A DNA stretch of 64,000 nucleotides from an uncultured delta proteobacterium (GTDB lineage Bacteria > Desulfobacterota > Desulfobacteria > Desulfobacterales > JAFDCJ01), in the NCBI GenBank assembly GCA_963769935.1, contig CAVYNY010000013.1:128001-192000 (forward strand), read 5' to 3'. Under the pieces are notes generated by a model, which worked only from the letters and a program-made list of their open reading frames with translations, searched no databases and had not been told where the DNA came from. The position numbers were made by a program, and so were the translations under genes. Positions 44,337 through 52,650 of the stretch are shown here, piece after piece; positions within the stretch are counted from its first letter, which is position 1; every line of letters starts with the position of its first letter.

Positions 44337-45857
44337 ATGGACAAACTATTACTCATAGATGATGAGCCCGACATTCTGAGGGTTCTTGGCATATCGCTGA
44401 AAGCAGACGGATATCATGTCATCCCGGCCCTCAATGGCGCTGAGGGCCTGGAGGCATTTTCCCGGGATAGGCCTTCCATTGTTATCACCGACATCAAAAT
44501 GCCGGGTATGGATGGTATCGAAGTTCTGGAAAAAATAAAAGAAATTGATCCCGATACGGAAGTGATTATCATAACCGGCCACGGTGATATAGACAATGCC
44601 ATCGAATCGCTTAAATATGGGGCCTCGGATTTCATCAACAAACCTGTGCGGGACGAAGCGCTGTCAATCGCCCTGGCAAGAGCCAAAGAAAAACTCGATA
44701 TCAAACGCCGGTTAAAGGAATATACGACTGATCTCGAAAAAAAAATCGAGCTTGCCACCAGTGAATTAAGAAGACAGACCAATTTTCAAATCAAACTCAT
44801 TCGAAGCTCAAATGATGGAATTGTCGCTACCGATCAGGAGTTGAAGATTGTTATTTATAATCCCGGCGCGGAGAAAATTTTCGGGTATTTCCAGTCCGAG
44901 GTCATATATAAGATGCAGTTGGAGGCGCTTTACCCGGCTGAAATCACGGGCTTGTTTCACGAGGCCTTGCGGGCGGATACCAGCCTGAAGGAAATTGCCT
45001 GGCGGGAAACCGAGATAACTTGCAAGGACGGCGAACAGATTCCGGTCAGGTTTTCGGGCACGATTTTAACGGAAAATGAACGGGAAATGGGCACGGTTGC
45101 TTTTTTTCAGGATTTGAGAGAAATTAAACGGTTGGAAAAAGAACTGGTCAAATCTGAGCGGCTGGCCGCCGTCGGGCAAACCGTGGCCGGTCTGGCGCAC
45201 GGCATTAAAAATATTTTGCACGGACTCAAGGGCGGCAGCTATCTGGTGGATATCGGAATCCAACGCAATGACACCGAAAAGCTAAAAAAGGGATGGGAAA
45301 CGATAAAAAGAAACATCGGCCGGACCTCTAATCTTGTGATGGATCTGCTGTCGTATTCCAAAGAACGCACGCCGGAATACGAAGTGTGCCGGCCCAATGA
45401 AATCATAAATGATGTTTGCGAACTGCTCAAAGCTAAAGCCGAGGAGAACAACATTGAAATCCTCACTGAATTTGACGACGCCGTCGGTGAAGTGGTTATG
45501 GATGGCAGCATAATTCATGAAGCCTTGCTGAACCTGGCGTCAAATGCCGTGGATGCCTGCCTGTTCGATGAGGACGTCGGCAAAAAATGGCAAGTCAGAC
45601 TGAAAACCGTGATGGAACCGGAAAATATCATCAAATTTGAAGTCACGGACAACGGGGCCGGCATGGACCAGGAGGTATTGCAGAAGCTCTTTACCTCATT
45701 TTTCAGCACCAAAGGGCATAGAGGCACCGGTCTGGGTCTGATGGTCACTCGCAAAATCATCGAAGAACACCAGGGCCGGATAGAAGTGGCATCCCAACTG
45801 GGCCAGGGAACCACTTTTACCGTCCGGTTGCCGTATAAGGTGGCTGATGCGGCCTAG
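44337..45857 (+). CDS. Hybrid kinase: receiver-PAS-HisKA-HATPase
   Basis: LLIDDE, ITDIKMPG; AHGIKNIL, DNGAG, GTGLG. Confidence 0.92.
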   Translation: MDKLLLIDDEPDILRVLGISLKADGYHVIPALNGAEGLEAFSRDRPSIVITDIKMPGMDGIEVLEKIKEIDPDTEVIIITGHGDIDNAIESLKYGASDFINKPVRDEALSIALARAKEKLDIKRRLKEYTTDLEKKIELATSELRRQTNFQIKLIRSSNDGIVATDQELKIVIYNPGAEKIFGYFQSEVIYKMQLEALYPAEITGLFHEALRADTSLKEIAWRETEITCKDGEQIPVRFSGTILTENEREMGTVAFFQDLREIKRLEKELVKSERLAAVGQTVAGLAHGIKNILHGLKGGSYLVDIGIQRNDTEKLKKGWETIKRNIGRTSNLVMDLLSYSKERTPEYEVCRPNEIINDVCELLKAKAEENNIEILTEFDDAVGEVVMDGSIIHEALLNLASNAVDACLFDEDVGKKWQVRLKTVMEPENIIKFEVTDNGAGMDQEVLQKLFTSFFSTKGHRGTGLGLMVTRKIIEEHQGRIEVASQLGQGTTFTVRLPYKVADAA

Positions 45858-45934
45858 TAATGGCTAAGATATAGTTTTGGTTAAAATCAATTTTTAAGAT
45901 ATATTGCTGAGTATTTTCATAAGGAGGATGCATC

Positions 45935-46327
45935 ATGGGTAAAAAAGTACTGGTTGTTGATGATGATCCGGATGTCCGGCTGTTCAGCGTTGCGGTTCTG
46001 GAAGAAAACGGCTACACCCCCCTGGAGGCGACCAACGGTGAAGAAGGCCTTACGATGATCAAAGCAGAAAAACCGGATTTGGTTATTCTGGATATTCTGA
46101 TGCCGAGGCAAAGCGGAATCCGACTATACCGCGAACTGAAGACTGACAAATCGCTGAGGACTGTTAAAGTTATCATTCTATCCGGCATCGCCAAAAAGAC
46201 GTTTCTGCGTTCCCAGAAGGCTCTGACCGAATTCGGCGGCGAGGAGGTTCCGGAACCCGAGATTTATTTGGAAAAACCGGTCGAACCTGAGGTGCTGGCA
46301 GATAATATTAAGAAAATTTTGGCCTGA
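45935..46327 (+). CDS. Single-domain response regulator
   Basis: VLVVDDD, LDILMP, EKP. Confidence 0.92.
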   Translation: MGKKVLVVDDDPDVRLFSVAVLEENGYTPLEATNGEEGLTMIKAEKPDLVILDILMPRQSGIRLYRELKTDKSLRTVKVIILSGIAKKTFLRSQKALTEFGGEEVPEPEIYLEKPVEPEVLADNIKKILA

Positions 46328-46365
46328 TGCCGTAAAAATCAAACAGCAAAACGCAGTGGAGAGCA

Positions 46366-47250
46366 ATGGAAACCATGAAGATTACGCGACTACTTTTCGT
46401 CACCAAGTTCGAGGAACTGGGATACGATGCCGTGCAGTCATTGCTGAGCCTGACAAAAGCCGACTTGAACCACATTGTCTTTTTAAACGTCATCGAAAGG
46501 GAACGCTTCGCCATGAGCCGGGTGGGCTACCGCAAGGATGAGGAAATAAGACTGCGGGAAGCGGCCAATATTCGGTTTATAGACTGGTCCGAAAACCTGT
46601 TTGAGCAGGGCTTGGAGGTCGGCGTCTATATCGTGGTCGGCAGCCTGGTTCCGCAAGTCATCAAAGCCGCGCAAAAAGAGGAAGCCGATCTTATTGTCAT
46701 CGGGCGTTCGCCCAAAGGTGTGCTGGAGCATCTGTACACAGGCTCGGACATCACGGAATTATTGCGCAGGGCGGAAACTCCGGTTCTGGTGTATAAACAT
46801 TTATCGGAGACGGTGATTTCCATCGCGAAACCCTTTGAAAGACCTCTACTGGCAATGGACTGGTCAGCTGCCAGTATGAAAGCGGTAGGGTATCTAAAGG
46901 AGCTTAAAGATGTGATTCAGGAGATAAGTGTCGTTCATGTGGTCAGTGAAAAGGACTTGAAAGCCACATCGGCCATGTCCGTCCAGAAAACGCGCAAACA
47001 GGCAAGGAAGAAGCTTGAGGAGATCAGCGCCATATTCGCAGCCGAGGGCATTGAGGCCAGAGAGCATGTTTACATCGGCGAGCCGGAGGAGGAGCTTGAA
47101 AAGGCGGCCCGGGAGTGCCAGTCGACCATGATTGTGATGGGCTCGTCTGCCAAGGCGGCCTGGGTTGAAAGATGGCTGGGCAGCATACCGCAGACGATAG
47201 CCGAAAAGTCAATGTATCCGAGCCTGTTGATACCGCCGGAGAAAAAGTGA
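46366..47250 (+). CDS. Tandem universal stress protein
   Basis: Two USP domains: ADLIVIGRS..GSD..PVLV; MIVMGS..LGS..PSLLI. Confidence 0.88.
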   Translation: METMKITRLLFVTKFEELGYDAVQSLLSLTKADLNHIVFLNVIERERFAMSRVGYRKDEEIRLREAANIRFIDWSENLFEQGLEVGVYIVVGSLVPQVIKAAQKEEADLIVIGRSPKGVLEHLYTGSDITELLRRAETPVLVYKHLSETVISIAKPFERPLLAMDWSAASMKAVGYLKELKDVIQEISVVHVVSEKDLKATSAMSVQKTRKQARKKLEEISAIFAAEGIEAREHVYIGEPEEELEKAARECQSTMIVMGSSAKAAWVERWLGSIPQTIAEKSMYPSLLIPPEKK

Positions 47251-47334
47251 TAACCGTTCTGCCGGCACCAAAGTACATCGATAACATTGCAATTCAATTT
47301 AACGTATAAAAGGTGACAGTTAATGGAGGATTTA

Positions 47335-47946
47335 ATGGCGGTAATCACCATTTCAAGACAATTCGGGGCCGGTGGTATCACCCTCGGGAAAATGGTTGCG
47401 AAAAGACTAGGCTATTCATTCGTCGACACGGAAATCATCAAAATGGTCGCCGAGATGGCCAACGTTTCTACCGATTTTGTCGAGACGGTGGAAAAGGAGG
47501 CCGGCGGCAAGTTTTCGAAGTTTGTTGCCAAATTGGTTTCAAAGCCCTTGCTGGAGCGAGTGCTGAAAGATGAGCGCGGCTATATCGACGAAGAAATATA
47601 TCTGGATTACCTGGTTTTGACCATTGCTCAAATGGCTGATGAGGGCAACGTTGTCATTCTGGGTCGAGGCAGCCAGTACATCTTGGGCGACCATCCCGAC
47701 GCCTATCACTTCCTGCTGATTGATGAGTTCGCGAACCGGGTGCGGTTCATTCAGGAGCGCTATGCCCTTTCAAAAAGCCGGGCGGAGCAGGTTGTAAAAA
47801 GCGAAGACAAGCGCCGATTAAATCTTTATCGAAAATTGCATAAAACCGACTATGACAGATCCAGTCTGTATCATCTGGTGCTGAATATGCACAGGATCAG
47901 CCTGGATCAGGCGCAGGAAATGATGTGCGGTCTGGTGGCGCCATGA
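47335..47946 (+). CDS. Cytidylate kinase-like family protein
   Basis: VITISRQFGAGG, VILGRGSQ, YHLVLN; RBS GGAGGA. Confidence 0.88.
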   Translation: MAVITISRQFGAGGITLGKMVAKRLGYSFVDTEIIKMVAEMANVSTDFVETVEKEAGGKFSKFVAKLVSKPLLERVLKDERGYIDEEIYLDYLVLTIAQMADEGNVVILGRGSQYILGDHPDAYHFLLIDEFANRVRFIQERYALSKSRAEQVVKSEDKRRLNLYRKLHKTDYDRSSLYHLVLNMHRISLDQAQEMMCGLVAP

Positions 47947-47972: not shown

Positions 47973-48000
47973 TTGACAGATTCAAGGAATGTCTGATAAT
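47973..48000 (+). promoter_or_regulatory. Putative sigma70 promoter of the Fo operon
   Basis: TTGACA-N16-GATAAT, about 60 nt upstream of atpZ. Confidence 0.5.
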
Positions 48001-48059: not shown

Positions 48060-48332
48060 ATGTTTTTTGATTTTAAAAAAAACCGCGCCTGGGCCGAAAA
48101 CCTCTCCATTGTGATGCAGATCGGCCTTACCATGGCCGGTTGTATCGTCTTTTGCTTCTTTGTAGGGCTATACATAGACAAGTGGATCGGCACAAAAGGC
48201 ATTTTTGTGGCGATTTTCACCGTGCTGGGGGTTGTCGGTGGGGCGGTAACGGTATACCGGCAAATTTTAAGTATCACCCAGGACGGGACAGGGAAAAGCA
48301 AGCCGGGAGATAAAGATCATGGAAAAAGTTAG
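48060..48332 (+). CDS. atpZ: AtpZ/AtpI-family small membrane protein
   Basis: Two TM segments with GLYIDKWIGT; first gene of the atp cluster. Confidence 0.8.
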   Translation: MFFDFKKNRAWAENLSIVMQIGLTMAGCIVFCFFVGLYIDKWIGTKGIFVAIFTVLGVVGGAVTVYRQILSITQDGTGKSKPGDKDHGKS

Positions 48333-48708
48333 GGAAACCCAGAAAAAGTATTGCTCACGGGCCATGATGGCGGCAATTCTCATAGGACTTTTTTTTATGC
48401 TCGCCGGATATCTTCCGATTACCAAAGGGCTGATATTGGGAACCCTTTTCAGTGTGATCAATTTTGTCCTCATCGGCGAAACGCTGCCGCTCAGACTTGG
48501 AAAACCAAAACGGAAGACCTTTTTTATTTCTCTGGGCTCGATTCTTTTCAGGTACGCACTATTATCTATTCCTCTGATTTTGGCTGTAAAATTTGAGCAG
48601 TTTAACCTGATTGCCGCTGTTGGCGGTCTTTTTGCGGTTCAGCTCGTCATTCTTGCGGACCACTTGTTCTCCTTGCTGCTTTCCCCCCAGAGAAAGCAAA
48701 TATTCTAA
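48319..48708 (+). CDS. atpI: ATP synthase subunit I
   Basis: Four TM segments, LFSVINF..FRY; directly upstream of atpB. Confidence 0.8.
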   Translation: MEKVRETQKKYCSRAMMAAILIGLFFMLAGYLPITKGLILGTLFSVINFVLIGETLPLRLGKPKRKTFFISLGSILFRYALLSIPLILAVKFEQFNLIAAVGGLFAVQLVILADHLFSLLLSPQRKQIF

Positions 48709-48735
48709 CCCATTTTTAAAGATGATTGAGTCACA

Positions 48736-49410
48736 ATGGAACAATTAGGCAGGATACATCAGCTGATAATTTCGGTCTGGGGGTATCACGTCACCCTTAA
48801 TCTTGAAGTCATCTTGATGACATGGATCGTCATTGTTATATTGCTGGTCTTTGGATTCTTGGCCGGCAGAAAAAAAAGCCGTCTGCCCGGCCCGCTTCAA
48901 AACGTCGGTGAATTGCTCGTTTCCAGTCTGTACGGCCTGACCGAAGATGCTATGGAAAAAAAATTGGCGCAAAAGTATGCCCCGCTTATCTGCGCGCTAT
49001 TCATGTTTCTCGTGTTATCCAACTGGTTGGGAATCCTGCCGCATCTCGAAGAGCCGACAAAAGATCTAAACACACCGCTAAGCCTGGGACTGCTGGGATT
49101 TGCAATCGCCCATTTCGCCGGTATTCGATCCAAAGGATTTAAACCTTATATCAAGGCCTATTTTGAACCCATTTTCTTTATGATGCCGCTGAATTTGATC
49201 GGAGAACTGGCGAAGGTGGTATCCATATCCTTTCGTCTTTTTGGCAACATTATGGGGGGGTCAATCATTATCATGGTAGTTTCCTATTTGACCTACAATT
49301 TGATTCTGCCGCCTGTTCTCAATGCATTTTTCGGGTTATTCGTCGGCACCATTCAGGCGTTTGTATTTACTATGCTCACGGTAGTTTACATTTCGGTTCA
49401 GGTAAAATAA
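48736..49410 (+). CDS. atpB: Fo subunit a
   Basis: PTKDLN, SISFRLFGN (essential Arg), IQAFVF. Confidence 0.95.
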   Translation: MEQLGRIHQLIISVWGYHVTLNLEVILMTWIVIVILLVFGFLAGRKKSRLPGPLQNVGELLVSSLYGLTEDAMEKKLAQKYAPLICALFMFLVLSNWLGILPHLEEPTKDLNTPLSLGLLGFAIAHFAGIRSKGFKPYIKAYFEPIFFMMPLNLIGELAKVVSISFRLFGNIMGGSIIIMVVSYLTYNLILPPVLNAFFGLFVGTIQAFVFTMLTVVYISVQVK

Positions 49411-49414
49411 TCAA

Positions 49415-50389
49415 ATGACAGCTGATATTCAGACGTGGATCAAGGCAGCGGCATTTGCAGGAGGCGGTTTGGCCATGGGATTCGGTGCCATCGGCGCCGC
49501 CATTGGGGAAGGTTATACAGCCGCAGAAGCCAATGAGGCCATCTCCAGAAACCCCCTGATCTCCGGAGATATTTTCAAAACCATGCTGATCGGCCAGGCA
49601 ATTGCCGAATCCGCTTCAATATTCGCCCTGGTCATTGCCATGATACTCTTGTTTACCGATTACGCCCCGACCTCCATTTTAACGGCTTGCGTACTGTTGT
49701 CCGCGGGACTATCTATGGGTCTTGGTGCCATCGGTTCCGGTATTGGTTCCGGGTTTCCGGCTGGGGCTGCCTGCCGCGGCATGTCCCGTCAGCCGGCCAT
49801 GGGCGGACGCCTCACCACCAACATGCTGATCGGATCAGCGGTTTGTCAGACACCGGCAATTTTCGCGCTGGTGACGTCGTTCATTCTGCTGTTCACCGAT
49901 TTTACACAGCGTTCGATTTCCCCGACCTGGGCCGCTATCCTGGGCGCCGGTTTGTCGTCGGGACTATCGGCCATCGGTTCGGGGTTGGGGGGGGGGCTTG
50001 TTGCCGAAGCAAGTTGTGAGGGCGCGGCCCGGCAGCCGGCCGCGGTAACAGCTGTTACCAATGTCATGCTGCTGGGACAGGCCGTTACCCAAACCACCGC
50101 AATATATGGACTTTTGATCAGCTTTATCTTGATATTCAAAAGTTTTCCGGAAACACAGGCTCTCGCTCCGGCCGCAGCACTTCTCGGCGCGGGCGTGTGC
50201 ATGGGCATCGGGGCGATCGGCCCCGGCATCGGAGAAGGGTTTACGGCCAAAAGTGCCGTAAGTTGGATAGCACGCAATTCAAACGCTGCGGCCGATATTA
50301 CCAGAGTCATGCTCGTCGGGCAGGCCGTTGCCGAATCGACCGGTATATATTCATTGGTAATTGCATTTATTTTGATATTCGTTGTGTGA
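49415..50389 (+). CDS. atpE: Fo subunit c, four fused hairpins (324 aa); carboxylate retained only in hairpins 1 and 4
   Basis: Four repeats ending GQAIAESASIF / GSAVCQTPAIF / GQAVTQTTAIY / GQAVAESTGIY. Confidence 0.92.
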   Translation: MTADIQTWIKAAAFAGGGLAMGFGAIGAAIGEGYTAAEANEAISRNPLISGDIFKTMLIGQAIAESASIFALVIAMILLFTDYAPTSILTACVLLSAGLSMGLGAIGSGIGSGFPAGAACRGMSRQPAMGGRLTTNMLIGSAVCQTPAIFALVTSFILLFTDFTQRSISPTWAAILGAGLSSGLSAIGSGLGGGLVAEASCEGAARQPAAVTAVTNVMLLGQAVTQTTAIYGLLISFILIFKSFPETQALAPAAALLGAGVCMGIGAIGPGIGEGFTAKSAVSWIARNSNAAADITRVMLVGQAVAESTGIYSLVIAFILIFVV

Positions 50390-50435
50390 TTTCAAATTCT
50401 TCCAGGGAAAAAATTAAAAATTCAGGAGGTTACAA

Positions 50436-50684
50436 ATGGCTATTGAAGGTGTAGATATTGTAAAAGCGGCAGCGTTTTTGGGCGCAGGAATCTCAATGGG
50501 ACTGGGTGCAATCGGACCCGGCGTCGGGGAGGGCATGGCAGCGGCCAAAGCGTGCGAAGCCATCGGCAAAAATCCGAAGGAAGCCGGTCTTTTAACCCGA
50601 ACCATGCTGGTCGGACAGGCGGTGACCGAGTCCACCGGAATTTATTCGCTGGTAATCGCGCTACTTCTGTTGTTTGTCGTCTAA
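50436..50684 (+). CDS. atpE: Fo subunit c, single hairpin, Na+-type
   Basis: P28, E32, V63, E65, S66, T67, Y70; RBS AGGAGG. Confidence 0.95.
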   Translation: MAIEGVDIVKAAAFLGAGISMGLGAIGPGVGEGMAAAKACEAIGKNPKEAGLLTRTMLVGQAVTESTGIYSLVIALLLLFVV

Positions 50685-50896
50685 TTTATCCGCTCTGAAA
50701 AATGGCATATTCAGGATGTTCAGTTATTTTATGGATTCTGAAGCATGTTGTTTGATTATCGGTCCGGCCGATCAATTAATTTATGCTGTGCCTGTTTGAT
50801 TTTATTTTTTTAAGTTAATTCATTTCAGCGACTTGTGTATCAAGTTAAATGGTTTCGCAGCTTAACCGTGAAACCGGCGCCGATGGAATACGTCTT

Positions 50897-51352
50897 ATGC
50901 AAATCGTCAGCAATATCGCTCTCATTACCATCAATGAAACGTTGATTGTGCAGTTGATTTCCTTTCTGCTGTTTTTATACCTCATCAATCGGGTGATGTT
51001 TCGTCCGTTACGCGAGGCAATGTCCGAGCGCGACAGTTACATCGAAAATCTGCGGCGCGAAATCTCCGATCAGCAAAAAGAGCTTCAAAAACTTTCAGCC
51101 CGGATGAAGGAAAGCGAGCAGGCCGTCGTTCGGGAAGCACACCATTTGAGCAATGTGCACGAAGAAACCGGCAGCCGCGAAGCTGCTCAGCTTATAGCCA
51201 CAACCCGGACCGAACTCCACGCACTTAAGGTAAAAACCGGCCAAGAAGTCGAAAACAGGATTGTAGAGGCTCGTGAACAATTGAGAACGGAGACACATGT
51301 CCTGGCAATGAATATCATGGAAAAGATTCTTGAACGGAGATTGGCTTCATGA
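50897..51352 (+). CDS. atpF: Fo subunit b'
   Basis: TLIVQLISFLLFLYLINRVMFRPL..ERD, then coiled coil. Confidence 0.88.
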   Translation: MQIVSNIALITINETLIVQLISFLLFLYLINRVMFRPLREAMSERDSYIENLRREISDQQKELQKLSARMKESEQAVVREAHHLSNVHEETGSREAAQLIATTRTELHALKVKTGQEVENRIVEAREQLRTETHVLAMNIMEKILERRLAS

Positions 51353-51936
51353 AAATTGTCAAAAATATACGTATCCTCTGCATCTTTCTGTTTGCGGGCA
51401 CCACCGCTTTCCACTTATTCGAAACTGCGGCCCTGGCGGCTGAAAGCGGAAGCAGCTGGCGTTCGAATTTCGATCTGATTATGATGTGGCTGAATTTCGC
51501 GATCCTGGCAATCGTGCTGATCAAATACGCCAAAAATCCGATCAAGGGGTTTTTCCGGGACCAGAAGGAAAGCATTGCCAAAGCCATAAGCGATATTGAA
51601 GCGCAAAAAGAAGCCAATGACATCGAAATCCGTAAGGCCCAGCAATTAATGCAGGAAAGCAGTGCTCGTTTTGAAGAAATAAGGGGAAAAATTATCGCCG
51701 AAGGTGAACGCAAGAAACAAGCCATCATCGAAGGCGCCCAGCGGGAAAGCAGACTGATGATCGAACATGCCGAGTTTTGGATAGAGCGCCACATCCAGCA
51801 GGCCAAAGAAAGGCTCAGATCCGAATTGATAGACGAATCCATTGAGCAGGCCCTGCAGCGGCTGCCGCAGGTGCTTACCCCGGAAGACAACCGGAAATTC
51901 ATAAGCCGCTACCTGACCGAGATCAAGACGCCTTGA
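51349..51936 (+). CDS. atpF: Fo subunit b
   Basis: MWLNFAILAIVLIKYAKNPIKGFF, then coiled coil. Confidence 0.88.
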   Translation: MKIVKNIRILCIFLFAGTTAFHLFETAALAAESGSSWRSNFDLIMMWLNFAILAIVLIKYAKNPIKGFFRDQKESIAKAISDIEAQKEANDIEIRKAQQLMQESSARFEEIRGKIIAEGERKKQAIIEGAQRESRLMIEHAEFWIERHIQQAKERLRSELIDESIEQALQRLPQVLTPEDNRKFISRYLTEIKTP

Positions 51937-51956: not shown

Positions 51957-52650
51957 ATGGCTAAAGAAAAAATTTCAATCAAACAGTTTGTCGGCAACCA
52001 GGTGAAGAAGTGGGAGCGGATGTACTCCCAGGCGGCGAAGACAAGCCGAACCGCGCCTGCCGACCATAACCCTTAATATGGAACCCGGCAGCGGCGGCAG
52101 CATCCTGGCGCAAAAAATAGCGGATCGACTGGATTTCGACCTCTTTAATCGGGAAATAGTTGAAGCGATAGCCAAAAGTTCCGAAATCAGAGAAACCGTT
52201 ATTGAAACCTTGGAAAAAGACCGTCTGTCCGGGATGGAAGATTTCATCGCCTCCCTGGTCAAGGATTATTACATCCATCCCGATCTTTATCTCGAGCATC
52301 TTCTCAAAGTCATCAACACGATTGCCAAGCACGGTCGGGCGGTGATCGTCGGCCGGGGCGCCAATTTTATCCTGCCGGCGCATGAAATATTTTCCGTACG
52401 CGTCATAGCGCCTCTGGAAATCAGGATCCGCAACGTGGCCCTCAATTACAAGGTTGCTGAAGAGGAAGCCAAGCGGCGGATCATCCAGCGGGAATCGCGC
52501 CGCAAAGCTTTTGTAAGACATTCCTTCAATGCCGATATATCCGATCCCCTCCATTACGACATGGTCATCAACACCGGCAAGATGAATATTGACGCCGCCG
52601 TGGAGGCGGTTATCGCGGCCGTTATGGCCTCCCTGGTGGGCAATCCTTAA
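51957..52650 (+). CDS. Cytidylate kinase-like family protein, apparent frameshift near the 5' end
   Basis: PTITLNMEPGSGG, VIVGRGANF, YDMVINT; upstream MAKEKISIKQFV..KKW is in a different frame. Confidence 0.75.

What the first reader, a model, noticed from the sequence alone, without database searches (positions are those of the whole stretch)
49415..50684. Hybrid c-ring: a four-hairpin c subunit with two adjacent ion-dead hairpins beside a normal c
Seen: atpE1 (324 aa) is four tandem c repeats. Hairpin 1 keeps E32/E65/S66 (T67 to A, Y70 to F). Hairpins 2 and 3 have Gln at the essential Glu (AVCQT, AVTQT) and lose the helix-1 ligand (GSG, GGG). Hairpin 4 has the full site (GEG...AESTGIY). atpE2 is a normal 82-aa c. 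Known: Acetobacterium woodii builds a mixed ring from a two-hairpin c with one site plus single c subunits; V-type c subunits alternate live and dead hairpins. Inference: a heteromeric ring with a two-position carboxylate gap. That would lower the Na+/ATP ratio, favouring ATP-driven Na+ export or allowing tuning through the E1:E2 ratio. I do not know of a characterised F-type rotor with this live-dead-dead-live pattern.
Basis: partly seen in the sequence, partly recalled or inferred. Interest (0 to 1): 0.9.

Follow-up and report, generated by a model that had tools for sequence, protein, structure and literature searches.

The report
Four-hairpin sodium rotor, two blank sites
A sulfate-reducer-type bacterium encodes, in a spare membrane-motor operon of its ATP synthase, a conserved rotor protein of four fused units whose middle two lack the ion-binding acid; it likely sits in the rotor beside normal units and would lower the number of sodium ions moved per ATP.

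Summary
atpE1 (49415-50389) has four F-type c hairpins, pattern E-Q-Q-E, beside a plain Na+-type c. It is conserved: 156 of 228 distinct multi-hairpin relatives are E-Q-Q-E, the rest carry one to five Gln hairpins, and dN/dS is 0.03-0.11 in all four hairpins. Ion sites lie between hairpins, and the ligand losses follow that geometry: donor residues of hairpin i match the Glu of hairpin i+1 at 710 of 727 junctions. Both ends of the protein keep half-sites that only another subunit can complete. So hairpin 1's T67A/Y70F belongs to the dead site, and ring incorporation is likely. The genome holds one F1 gamma gene and two Fo sets, so F1 is likely shared with an ordinary, probably H+-type motor. 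Co-assembly, ring size and direction (synthesis or pumping) are untested. It works like Acetobacterium woodii c1 but has four hairpins, not two. Ten literature searches found no description; Brandt and Muller 2015, the likeliest prior report, was not readable. This scan found the same family before on other genomes. Verdict: new variant of a known kind.

The parts
47973..48000 (+). Sigma-70-like promoter candidate (TTGACA-16-GATAAT, 11 of 12 consensus) upstream of atpZ
   Evidence: 9 sites found against 7.0 +/- 3.1 in shuffles, so only its position and score single it out
48060..48332 (+). atpZ-like gene (ATPase_gene1), 90 aa
   Evidence: PF09527
48319..48708 (+). atpI, 129 aa
   Evidence: PF03899
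48736..49410 (+). atpB, subunit a, 224 aa; keeps the Arg in SFRLFGN
   Evidence: PF00119
49415..50389 (+). atpE1, four-hairpin fused c subunit, 324 aa, E-Q-Q-E
49415..49660 (+). Hairpin 1: live acceptor (E32, E65), dead donor half (A67, F70)
49661..49900 (+). Hairpin 2: dead on both sides (S112, Q145; P147, F150)
49901..50143 (+). Hairpin 3: dead acceptor (G193, Q226), live donor half (T227, T228, Y231)
50144..50389 (+). Hairpin 4: full site (E274, E307, S308, T309, Y312)
50436..50684 (+). atpE2, plain 82-aa c subunit with two-carboxylate Na+ motif; strong ribosome site (CAGGAGG) upstream
50849..51352 (+). atpF' (b'), up to 167 aa; start codon uncertain
   Evidence: PF00430
51349..51936 (+). 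atpF (b), 195 aa; last ATP synthase gene, no F1 genes follow
   Evidence: PF00430

Best explanation
atpE1 is a conserved four-hairpin F-type c subunit that likely co-assembles with plain atpE2 subunits into a Na+ rotor ring, where it would leave two adjacent positions unable to carry an ion and so lower the Na+ moved per ATP. Shown: the four hairpins, the residues, their conservation, and an operon with its own a, b' and b but no F1. Inferred from solved Na+ rings: each site uses E32/E65 of one hairpin plus S66/T67/Y70 of the one before, so E1 offers a live acceptor at its start, a complete internal site between hairpins 3 and 4, a live donor at its end, and two dead junctions. Inferred: this Fo is an accessory motor that uses the cell's single F1, in alternation with an ordinary, probably H+-type Fo. 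With one E1 in a ring of 11-15 hairpins (ring size assumed) there would be 9-13 sites, 3.0-4.3 Na+/ATP instead of 3.7-5.0. I judge it a reversible enzyme able to make ATP from the Na+ gradient (about 55% synthesis as main use, 35% pumping, 10% other); direction is untested.
For: Junction rule: donor [ST][ST]xxY in hairpin i agrees with Glu in hairpin i+1 at 710 of 727 junctions, against 514 of 955 for the same hairpin and 121 of 727 for hairpin i-1. First hairpin has E65 in 228 of 228 proteins, last hairpin has S-T-Y in 228 of 228, and every non-Glu position is Gln (554 of 554) (relatives are not independent). The direction of the rule is published (PMC11738941 supplement; PMC3692424 passages). 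A. woodii c1 shows the same offset in its sequence. dN/dS over 13 disjoint close pairs: hairpins 1-4 0.069, 0.051, 0.028, 0.113; E2 0.018. The loop Arg is kept in the commonest loop motifs of all four hairpins. AlphaFold model: four helical hairpins, pLDDT 94.6; best sequence and fold match is 4BEM chain J. Own genome: one gamma, two a, four b-type genes, a V/A-type ATPase and FliI, Rnf and an NCBIfam 'sodium-translocating' pyrophosphatase. No F1 hit in any of 80 related loci, 54 of them with 3 kb or more read past b. All 40 E1-bearing genomes of 81 have two or more subunit-a matches; 26 of the other 41 have one.
Against: No protein-level evidence that E1 enters the ring. 17 of 727 junctions break the rule, 12 of them E-Q-Q-E proteins whose hairpin 3 lacks T67 or both T67 and Y70. 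The same Fo-only operon occurs without E1 in three genomes (L158, L159, L162; the L162 genome has an E1 gene elsewhere), and E1 occurs alone (L012, L038, L039), so E1 is not required for the module. Crossing a two-site gap (83-98 degrees for 11-13 hairpins) against a synthesis load costs roughly 21-41 kJ/mol against 14.5 kJ/mol from one Na+ at 150 mV (my arithmetic); synthesis would need elastic storage. Five-dead forms (166-196 degrees) strain a synthesis reading further.
Confidence: 0.72

Rival explanations
1. Same ring, but used mainly as an ATP-driven Na+ pump: F1 drives the rotor across the gap and fewer sites allow a steeper Na+ gradient.
For: The module is accessory in 40 of 40 E1-bearing genomes of the order; forms with three to five consecutive dead hairpins are common (57 of 228) and imply gaps of 111-196 degrees; two-carboxylate c subunits are typical of pumping N-ATPases (recalled).
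Against: Enzymes with dead hairpins synthesise ATP from about 90 mV (PMC9171764). In G077, G098 and G267 the fused c lies in an operon that runs on into F1 genes, and each has one alpha/beta pair. The genome also has other Na+ exporters (Rnf, pyrophosphatase) and a V/A-type ATPase.
Confidence: 0.35
2. E1 is mainly structural or regulatory: a nucleus or size-setting arc for ring assembly, or a parking position where the rotor stalls with no ion site facing subunit a, limiting leak or futile ATP hydrolysis. The change in Na+/ATP is a side effect.
For: Dead hairpins are as constrained as live ones; the dead position is always Gln, never a random residue; the number of dead hairpins varies from one to five without loss of the gene.
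Against: The operon exists without E1, so assembly does not need it. In the hairpin tree, Glu and Gln versions of the same hairpin position group together (weak support), which fits selection on site number.
Confidence: 0.2
3. The Gln hairpins still bind an ion weakly, so there is no true gap.
For: Gln is invariant and Thr66 is kept at both dead junctions' donor side or acceptor side.
Against: The helix-1 ligand is replaced by S, G, A, N, C or V in all 554 Gln hairpins and the matching T67/Y70 are lost in step. The E-to-Q hairpin of A. woodii c1 is described as leaving one site in two hairpins.
Confidence: 0.06
4. E1 is a decaying duplicate or is never built into rings.
For: Orphan copies and E1-less operons exist.
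Against: dN/dS 0.03-0.11, intact frames in 40 of 81 genomes of the order and 34 of 301 of the phylum, and terminal half-sites kept in 228 of 228.
Confidence: 0.05

Closest known systems
Acetobacterium woodii F1Fo subunit c1 in the F/V-hybrid Na+ ring (PDB 4BEM chain J); also Clostridium aceticum c1/c2
   Same: Fused c gene before a plain c gene in an F-type operon; Na+ motif; Glu-to-Gln dead hairpin; same offset (first hairpin has Phe at 70, dead hairpin keeps T-T-Y). Best sequence (E 4e-24) and fold (E 6e-7) match.
   Different: Four hairpins and two adjacent dead sites instead of two hairpins and one; Glu, not Gln, at position 32; Fo-only operon beside a second ordinary Fo. c1 is shown in a 9:1 ring; nothing is shown here.
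Fusobacterium nucleatum c11 two-carboxylate Na+ ring (PDB 3ZK1; PMC3692424)
   Same: E32, E65, S66, T67, Y70 site as in E2 and hairpin 4; sites at subunit interfaces.
   Different: Homomeric ring of single hairpins, no dead sites.
V/A-type K subunits and multi-hairpin archaeal rotors (Enterococcus hirae K, Methanopyrus kandleri 13 hairpins)
   Same: Fused hairpins with fewer ion sites.
   Different: Different ATPase type; E1 scores below every V-type K cut-off and above several F-type c cut-offs; two-hairpin K subunits space sites evenly (recalled).
Duplicated, ectopic Fo set of Desulfococcus oleovorans (PMC4154653)
   Same: A second Fo gene set without F1 in a related sulfate reducer (passages).
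   Different: The passages seen mention no fused c, ion type or shared-F1 model.
N-ATPase
   Same: Accessory ATPase beside a main one.
   Different: N-ATPase clusters carry their own beta, epsilon, alpha and gamma; none here; a and E2 score far below the N-type cut-offs.

Membership tests
F-type c subunit (PF00137, TIGR01260) | Helical hairpin domain matching the family, in an Fo operon with a and b | tested here: met
   Four PF00137 stretches; atpB and two atpF genes adjacent
Na+-type c subunit | [Q/E]...E in a hairpin with [S/T][S/T/Q]xxY in the previous hairpin | tested here: met
   E2, the hairpin 3-4 junction and both ends of E1 (rule)
Na+-type c subunit | Measured Na+ dependence or transport | not testable with these tools
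   Needs biochemistry
A. woodii-type F/V hybrid rotor | Fused and plain c genes in one atp operon | tested here: met
A. woodii-type F/V hybrid rotor | Fused subunit has two hairpins and one ion site | tested here: not met
   Four hairpins, two Glu, two adjacent Gln
A. woodii-type F/V hybrid rotor | Dead site made by Glu-to-Gln with donor residues lost in the hairpin before | tested here: met
A. woodii-type F/V hybrid rotor | Complete operon including F1 genes | tested here: not met
   No F1 genes here or in 80 of 80 related loci; met in distant relatives G077 and G098
A. woodii-type F/V hybrid rotor | Fused and plain subunits co-assemble in one ring | not testable with these tools
   Only indirect support from terminal half-sites
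N-ATPase | Single cluster beta-epsilon-X-X-a-c-(b delta)-alpha-gamma | tested here: not met
V/A-type K subunit | Scores above K-family cut-offs; lies in a V/A operon | tested here: not met
   PRK06271 88 bits against cut-off 211; the V/A operon is on another contig

The most novel reading that the evidence does not exclude
These bacteria run an ATP synthase with swappable motors: one F1 docks on either an H+ Fo or a Na+ Fo whose rotor carries an evolvable blank arc of one to five consecutive ion-free positions, and the enzyme makes ATP while coasting about 90 degrees or more with no ion-binding step, which would test how far elastic coupling can carry the rotor.
Probability: 0.3. Interest if true: 0.85.

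Novelty: new variant of a known kind. Interest (0 to 1): 0.63.

Why it matters
The ion-to-ATP ratio sets the energy budget of anaerobes, and the F-type hybrid rotors found described here skip a single site. A natural series with one to five consecutive dead sites, present in about half of the Desulfobacterales-type genomes sampled and in cultured species (Desulfosarcina variabilis, Desulfatibacillum alkenivorans), makes two open questions testable: how long an ion-free arc a rotor can cross during synthesis, and whether one F1 serves two Fo motors of different ion type. Energy models of marine sulfate reducers that assume a uniform H+ ring would need revision.

Tried and rejected
Complex prediction of E1 with E2 was not available, so there is no model of the ring. 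A second structural alignment (pdb_via) was not available. No model coordinates reach the script box, so arc curvature and ligand distances were not measured (listing). A single-sequence fold of the six-hairpin P0010 gave pLDDT 55.7 and was not used. Four metatranscriptome runs of one study hold contigs over the operon, one spanning 48098-50697, but also over all flanking genes; they are contigs and may include DNA, so expression is not shown. The search for forms over 567 aa gave 17 proteins at 23-30% identity, those named being archaeal or V/A-type K; no long F-type relative was found, which is weak evidence. Pattern letters printed were one column off; counts come from the corrected, which dropped 2 incomplete proteins. 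dN/dS skipped 17 of 110 four-hairpin loci whose motif anchors failed and used 13 pairs from the 66 E-Q-Q-E loci. The hairpin tree is a quick tree on 80 columns and no clade test was run. The PF00006 hit on contig C21, first thought to be a spare beta, is FliI. Rejected: frameshift or mis-assembly, decay, N-ATPase, V-type K.

Full report
Observation. The window carries atpZ, atpI, atpB, atpE1, atpE2, atpF' and atpF on the + strand from 48060 to 51936. atpE1 is 324 aa with four PF00137 stretches; atpE2 is 82 aa with one. The repeats align without gaps to E2, whose numbering matches the F. nucleatum ring paper (E32, E65, S66, T67, Y70). The best solved match by sequence and by fold is A. woodii c1, 4BEM chain J. 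Close relatives are titled Desulfobacterales, so the organism is likely of that order (inference).

Conservation. A protein search found 2487 hits among 8000 scored candidates and listed 120. A scan of GTDB genomes found 334 stretches and kept 80 loci. The fused gene is in 40 of 81 genomes of the order at 95% completeness or more and 34 of 301 of the phylum, own genome included. Pooling hits and loci gave 228 distinct multi-hairpin proteins after dropping 2 incomplete ones: E-Q-Q-E 156, E-Q-Q-Q 26, E plus five Q 14, E plus four Q 11, E-Q-Q 8, E-Q-Q-Q-E 6, E-Q-E-E 4, E-Q-Q-Q-Q-E 3. The pool is biased towards the query. dN/dS over 13 disjoint close pairs is 0.069, 0.051, 0.028 and 0.113 for hairpins 1-4 and 0.018 for E2.

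Half-site geometry. In solved Na+ rings, E32 and E65 come from one subunit and S66 and V63 from the adjacent one (PMC3692424 passages). The ProAD supplement states the direction for fused subunits: the S/T-S/T/Q-x-x-Y donor is in the previous hairpin (read whole). Tested on the 228 proteins, donor state in hairpin i agrees with Glu in hairpin i+1 at 710 of 727 junctions. The controls give 514 of 955 (same hairpin) and 121 of 727 (hairpin i-1). Relatives are not independent, so these are descriptions, not statistics. Every protein starts with a Glu hairpin and ends with an S-T-Y donor. Those two half-sites can only be completed by another subunit, which is the best indirect evidence for ring incorporation. 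It also explains hairpin 1's T67A/Y70F, which face the dead hairpin 2. A. woodii c1 shows the same offset. Against: 17 junctions break the rule, 12 in E-Q-Q-E proteins whose fourth site may be degraded or H+-like. A quick tree groups hairpins by position, with Glu and Gln versions together and hairpin 4 apart from E2; support is weak, so in-place gain or loss of sites is a hint only.

An Fo without its own F1. No F1 gene follows atpF in the window or lies in any of 80 related loci, 54 of which were read 3 kb or more past b. The genome (96.7% complete, 5.4% contaminated) has one gamma, two a and four b-type genes. F1 with b' and b is on C11; a second a-c pair is on C32, with c lacking T67 (Q-E-S-L-Y), H+-type by the ProAD rule. 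There is also a V/A-type ATPase, Rnf and a membrane pyrophosphatase. All 40 E1-bearing genomes have two or more subunit-a matches (one, G374, as contig-end pieces), against 15 of the 41 others. 33 of the 40 have three or fewer PF00006 matches, leaving room for one alpha/beta pair (at most 32 candidates per genome were scored). In distant relatives G077 and G098 the fused c sits in a complete operon holding the only alpha/beta pair, with a plain a-c pair elsewhere. A shared F1 is the simplest reading; it is inferred. The module also occurs without E1 (L158, L159, L162) and E1 occurs alone, so E1 looks like an optional part.

Mechanism. Inferred: a ring of mostly E2 with about one E1. E2 has a strong ribosome site and E1 a weak one, and A. 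woodii uses 9:1. Ring size is unknown. For 11-15 hairpins one E1 gives 3.0-4.3 Na+/ATP instead of 3.7-5.0, with a gap of 72-98 degrees and thresholds of 72-173 mV at 30-50 kJ/mol. Subunit a would meet two neutral Gln positions in a row; the invariant Gln may give its Arg a polar partner (inference). Fewer sites does not mean a pump: A. woodii and E. callanderi enzymes make ATP from about 90 mV (PMC9171764, passages and Discussion). A two-site gap is shorter than one 120-degree F1 step, so synthesis through elastic storage is plausible. Five-site gaps are not, unless rings are large or E1 is in only some rings. I therefore commit to a low-gear, reversible Na+ motor (0.72) and leave direction open (about 55:35).

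Comparison with what is known. It works like A. woodii c1 but is not a member in the strict sense: hairpin number and operon completeness fail. It is not an N-ATPase or a V-type K. Ten full-text searches gave no description of a three- to six-hairpin F-type c in the listings or passages read. A 2026 preprint on rotary ATPase evolution has no 'Desulf' term and, in the passages seen, cites A. woodii for mixed rings (supplements closed). ProAD's logos show one- and two-hairpin c only (its data tables were not seen). A ring-size survey filtered out sequences over 250 aa (passages). PMC4154653 notes a duplicated Fo set in D. oleovorans (passages), and PMC13343851 notes two to four atpE copies in Desulfatiglandales without resolving them (passages). 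Passages of PMC7911925, PMC5109826, PMC2702500, PMC8805022 and PMC5129741 added nothing on this protein. Brandt and Muller 2015, a genome survey of hybrid rotors, was not held and was seen only as a citation; from recall its abstract lists twelve species with one F- and one V-type c gene, and it may include sulfate reducers. Matthies 2014 was not held. Most subscription journals are outside the library.

Earlier scan notes. The scan reported this family on other genomes many times, including E-Q-Q-E. They are unchecked AI notes and were not counted as support; my reading was on record before the first look-up.

Verdict. A real, conserved, apparently uncharacterised extension of the hybrid rotor, in an accessory Na+ Fo. 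New variant of a known kind; interest 0.63.

Noticed in passing
window 44337-47946 and 52078-52650: A sensor kinase, response regulator, tandem USP gene and Cytidylate_kin2-domain gene lie upstream of the operon, and a second Cytidylate_kin2 gene follows it. The upstream block recurs in L035, L091 and L103 (3 of 80) and reversed in L094; such kinase-like genes flank the operon in several more loci. Possible regulators.
   Followed up: partly
L038:9998-10975, L039:9998-10975, L012: Stand-alone intact E-Q-Q-E genes with no neighbouring atp genes; one genome (G060) has both an operon copy and an orphan.
   Followed up: partly
L158, L159, L162: The same Fo-only operon with only the plain Na+-type c: a natural control without E1. 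L159 has a gap of about 360 bp between a and c.
   Followed up: partly
L164, L165 (G377): Two separate operons each with an E-Q-Q-Q fused c in one genome.
   Followed up: no
proteins P0216-P0289: A separate group of about 318-aa four-hairpin c-like proteins at about 30% identity, typical pattern E-Q-E-D, with Pro67/Phe70 in the inner hairpins. An earlier scan note mentions Babelota for such proteins; not checked.
   Followed up: no
proteins P0123-P0139, P0166, P0172: Fused rotor proteins of 6-15 hairpins, those named archaeal or V/A-type; many begin with a Gln hairpin and end in a Phe70 donor.
   Followed up: no
L166:1723-12835 (G000 C22): Rnf cluster with a long 712-aa RnfB-like frame near a membrane pyrophosphatase gene.
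   Followed up: partly
L001:2948-3816: A tyrosyl-tRNA-synthetase-like gene (named from recall of its motifs) appears as two overlapping frames, possibly a sequencing frameshift.
   Followed up: no
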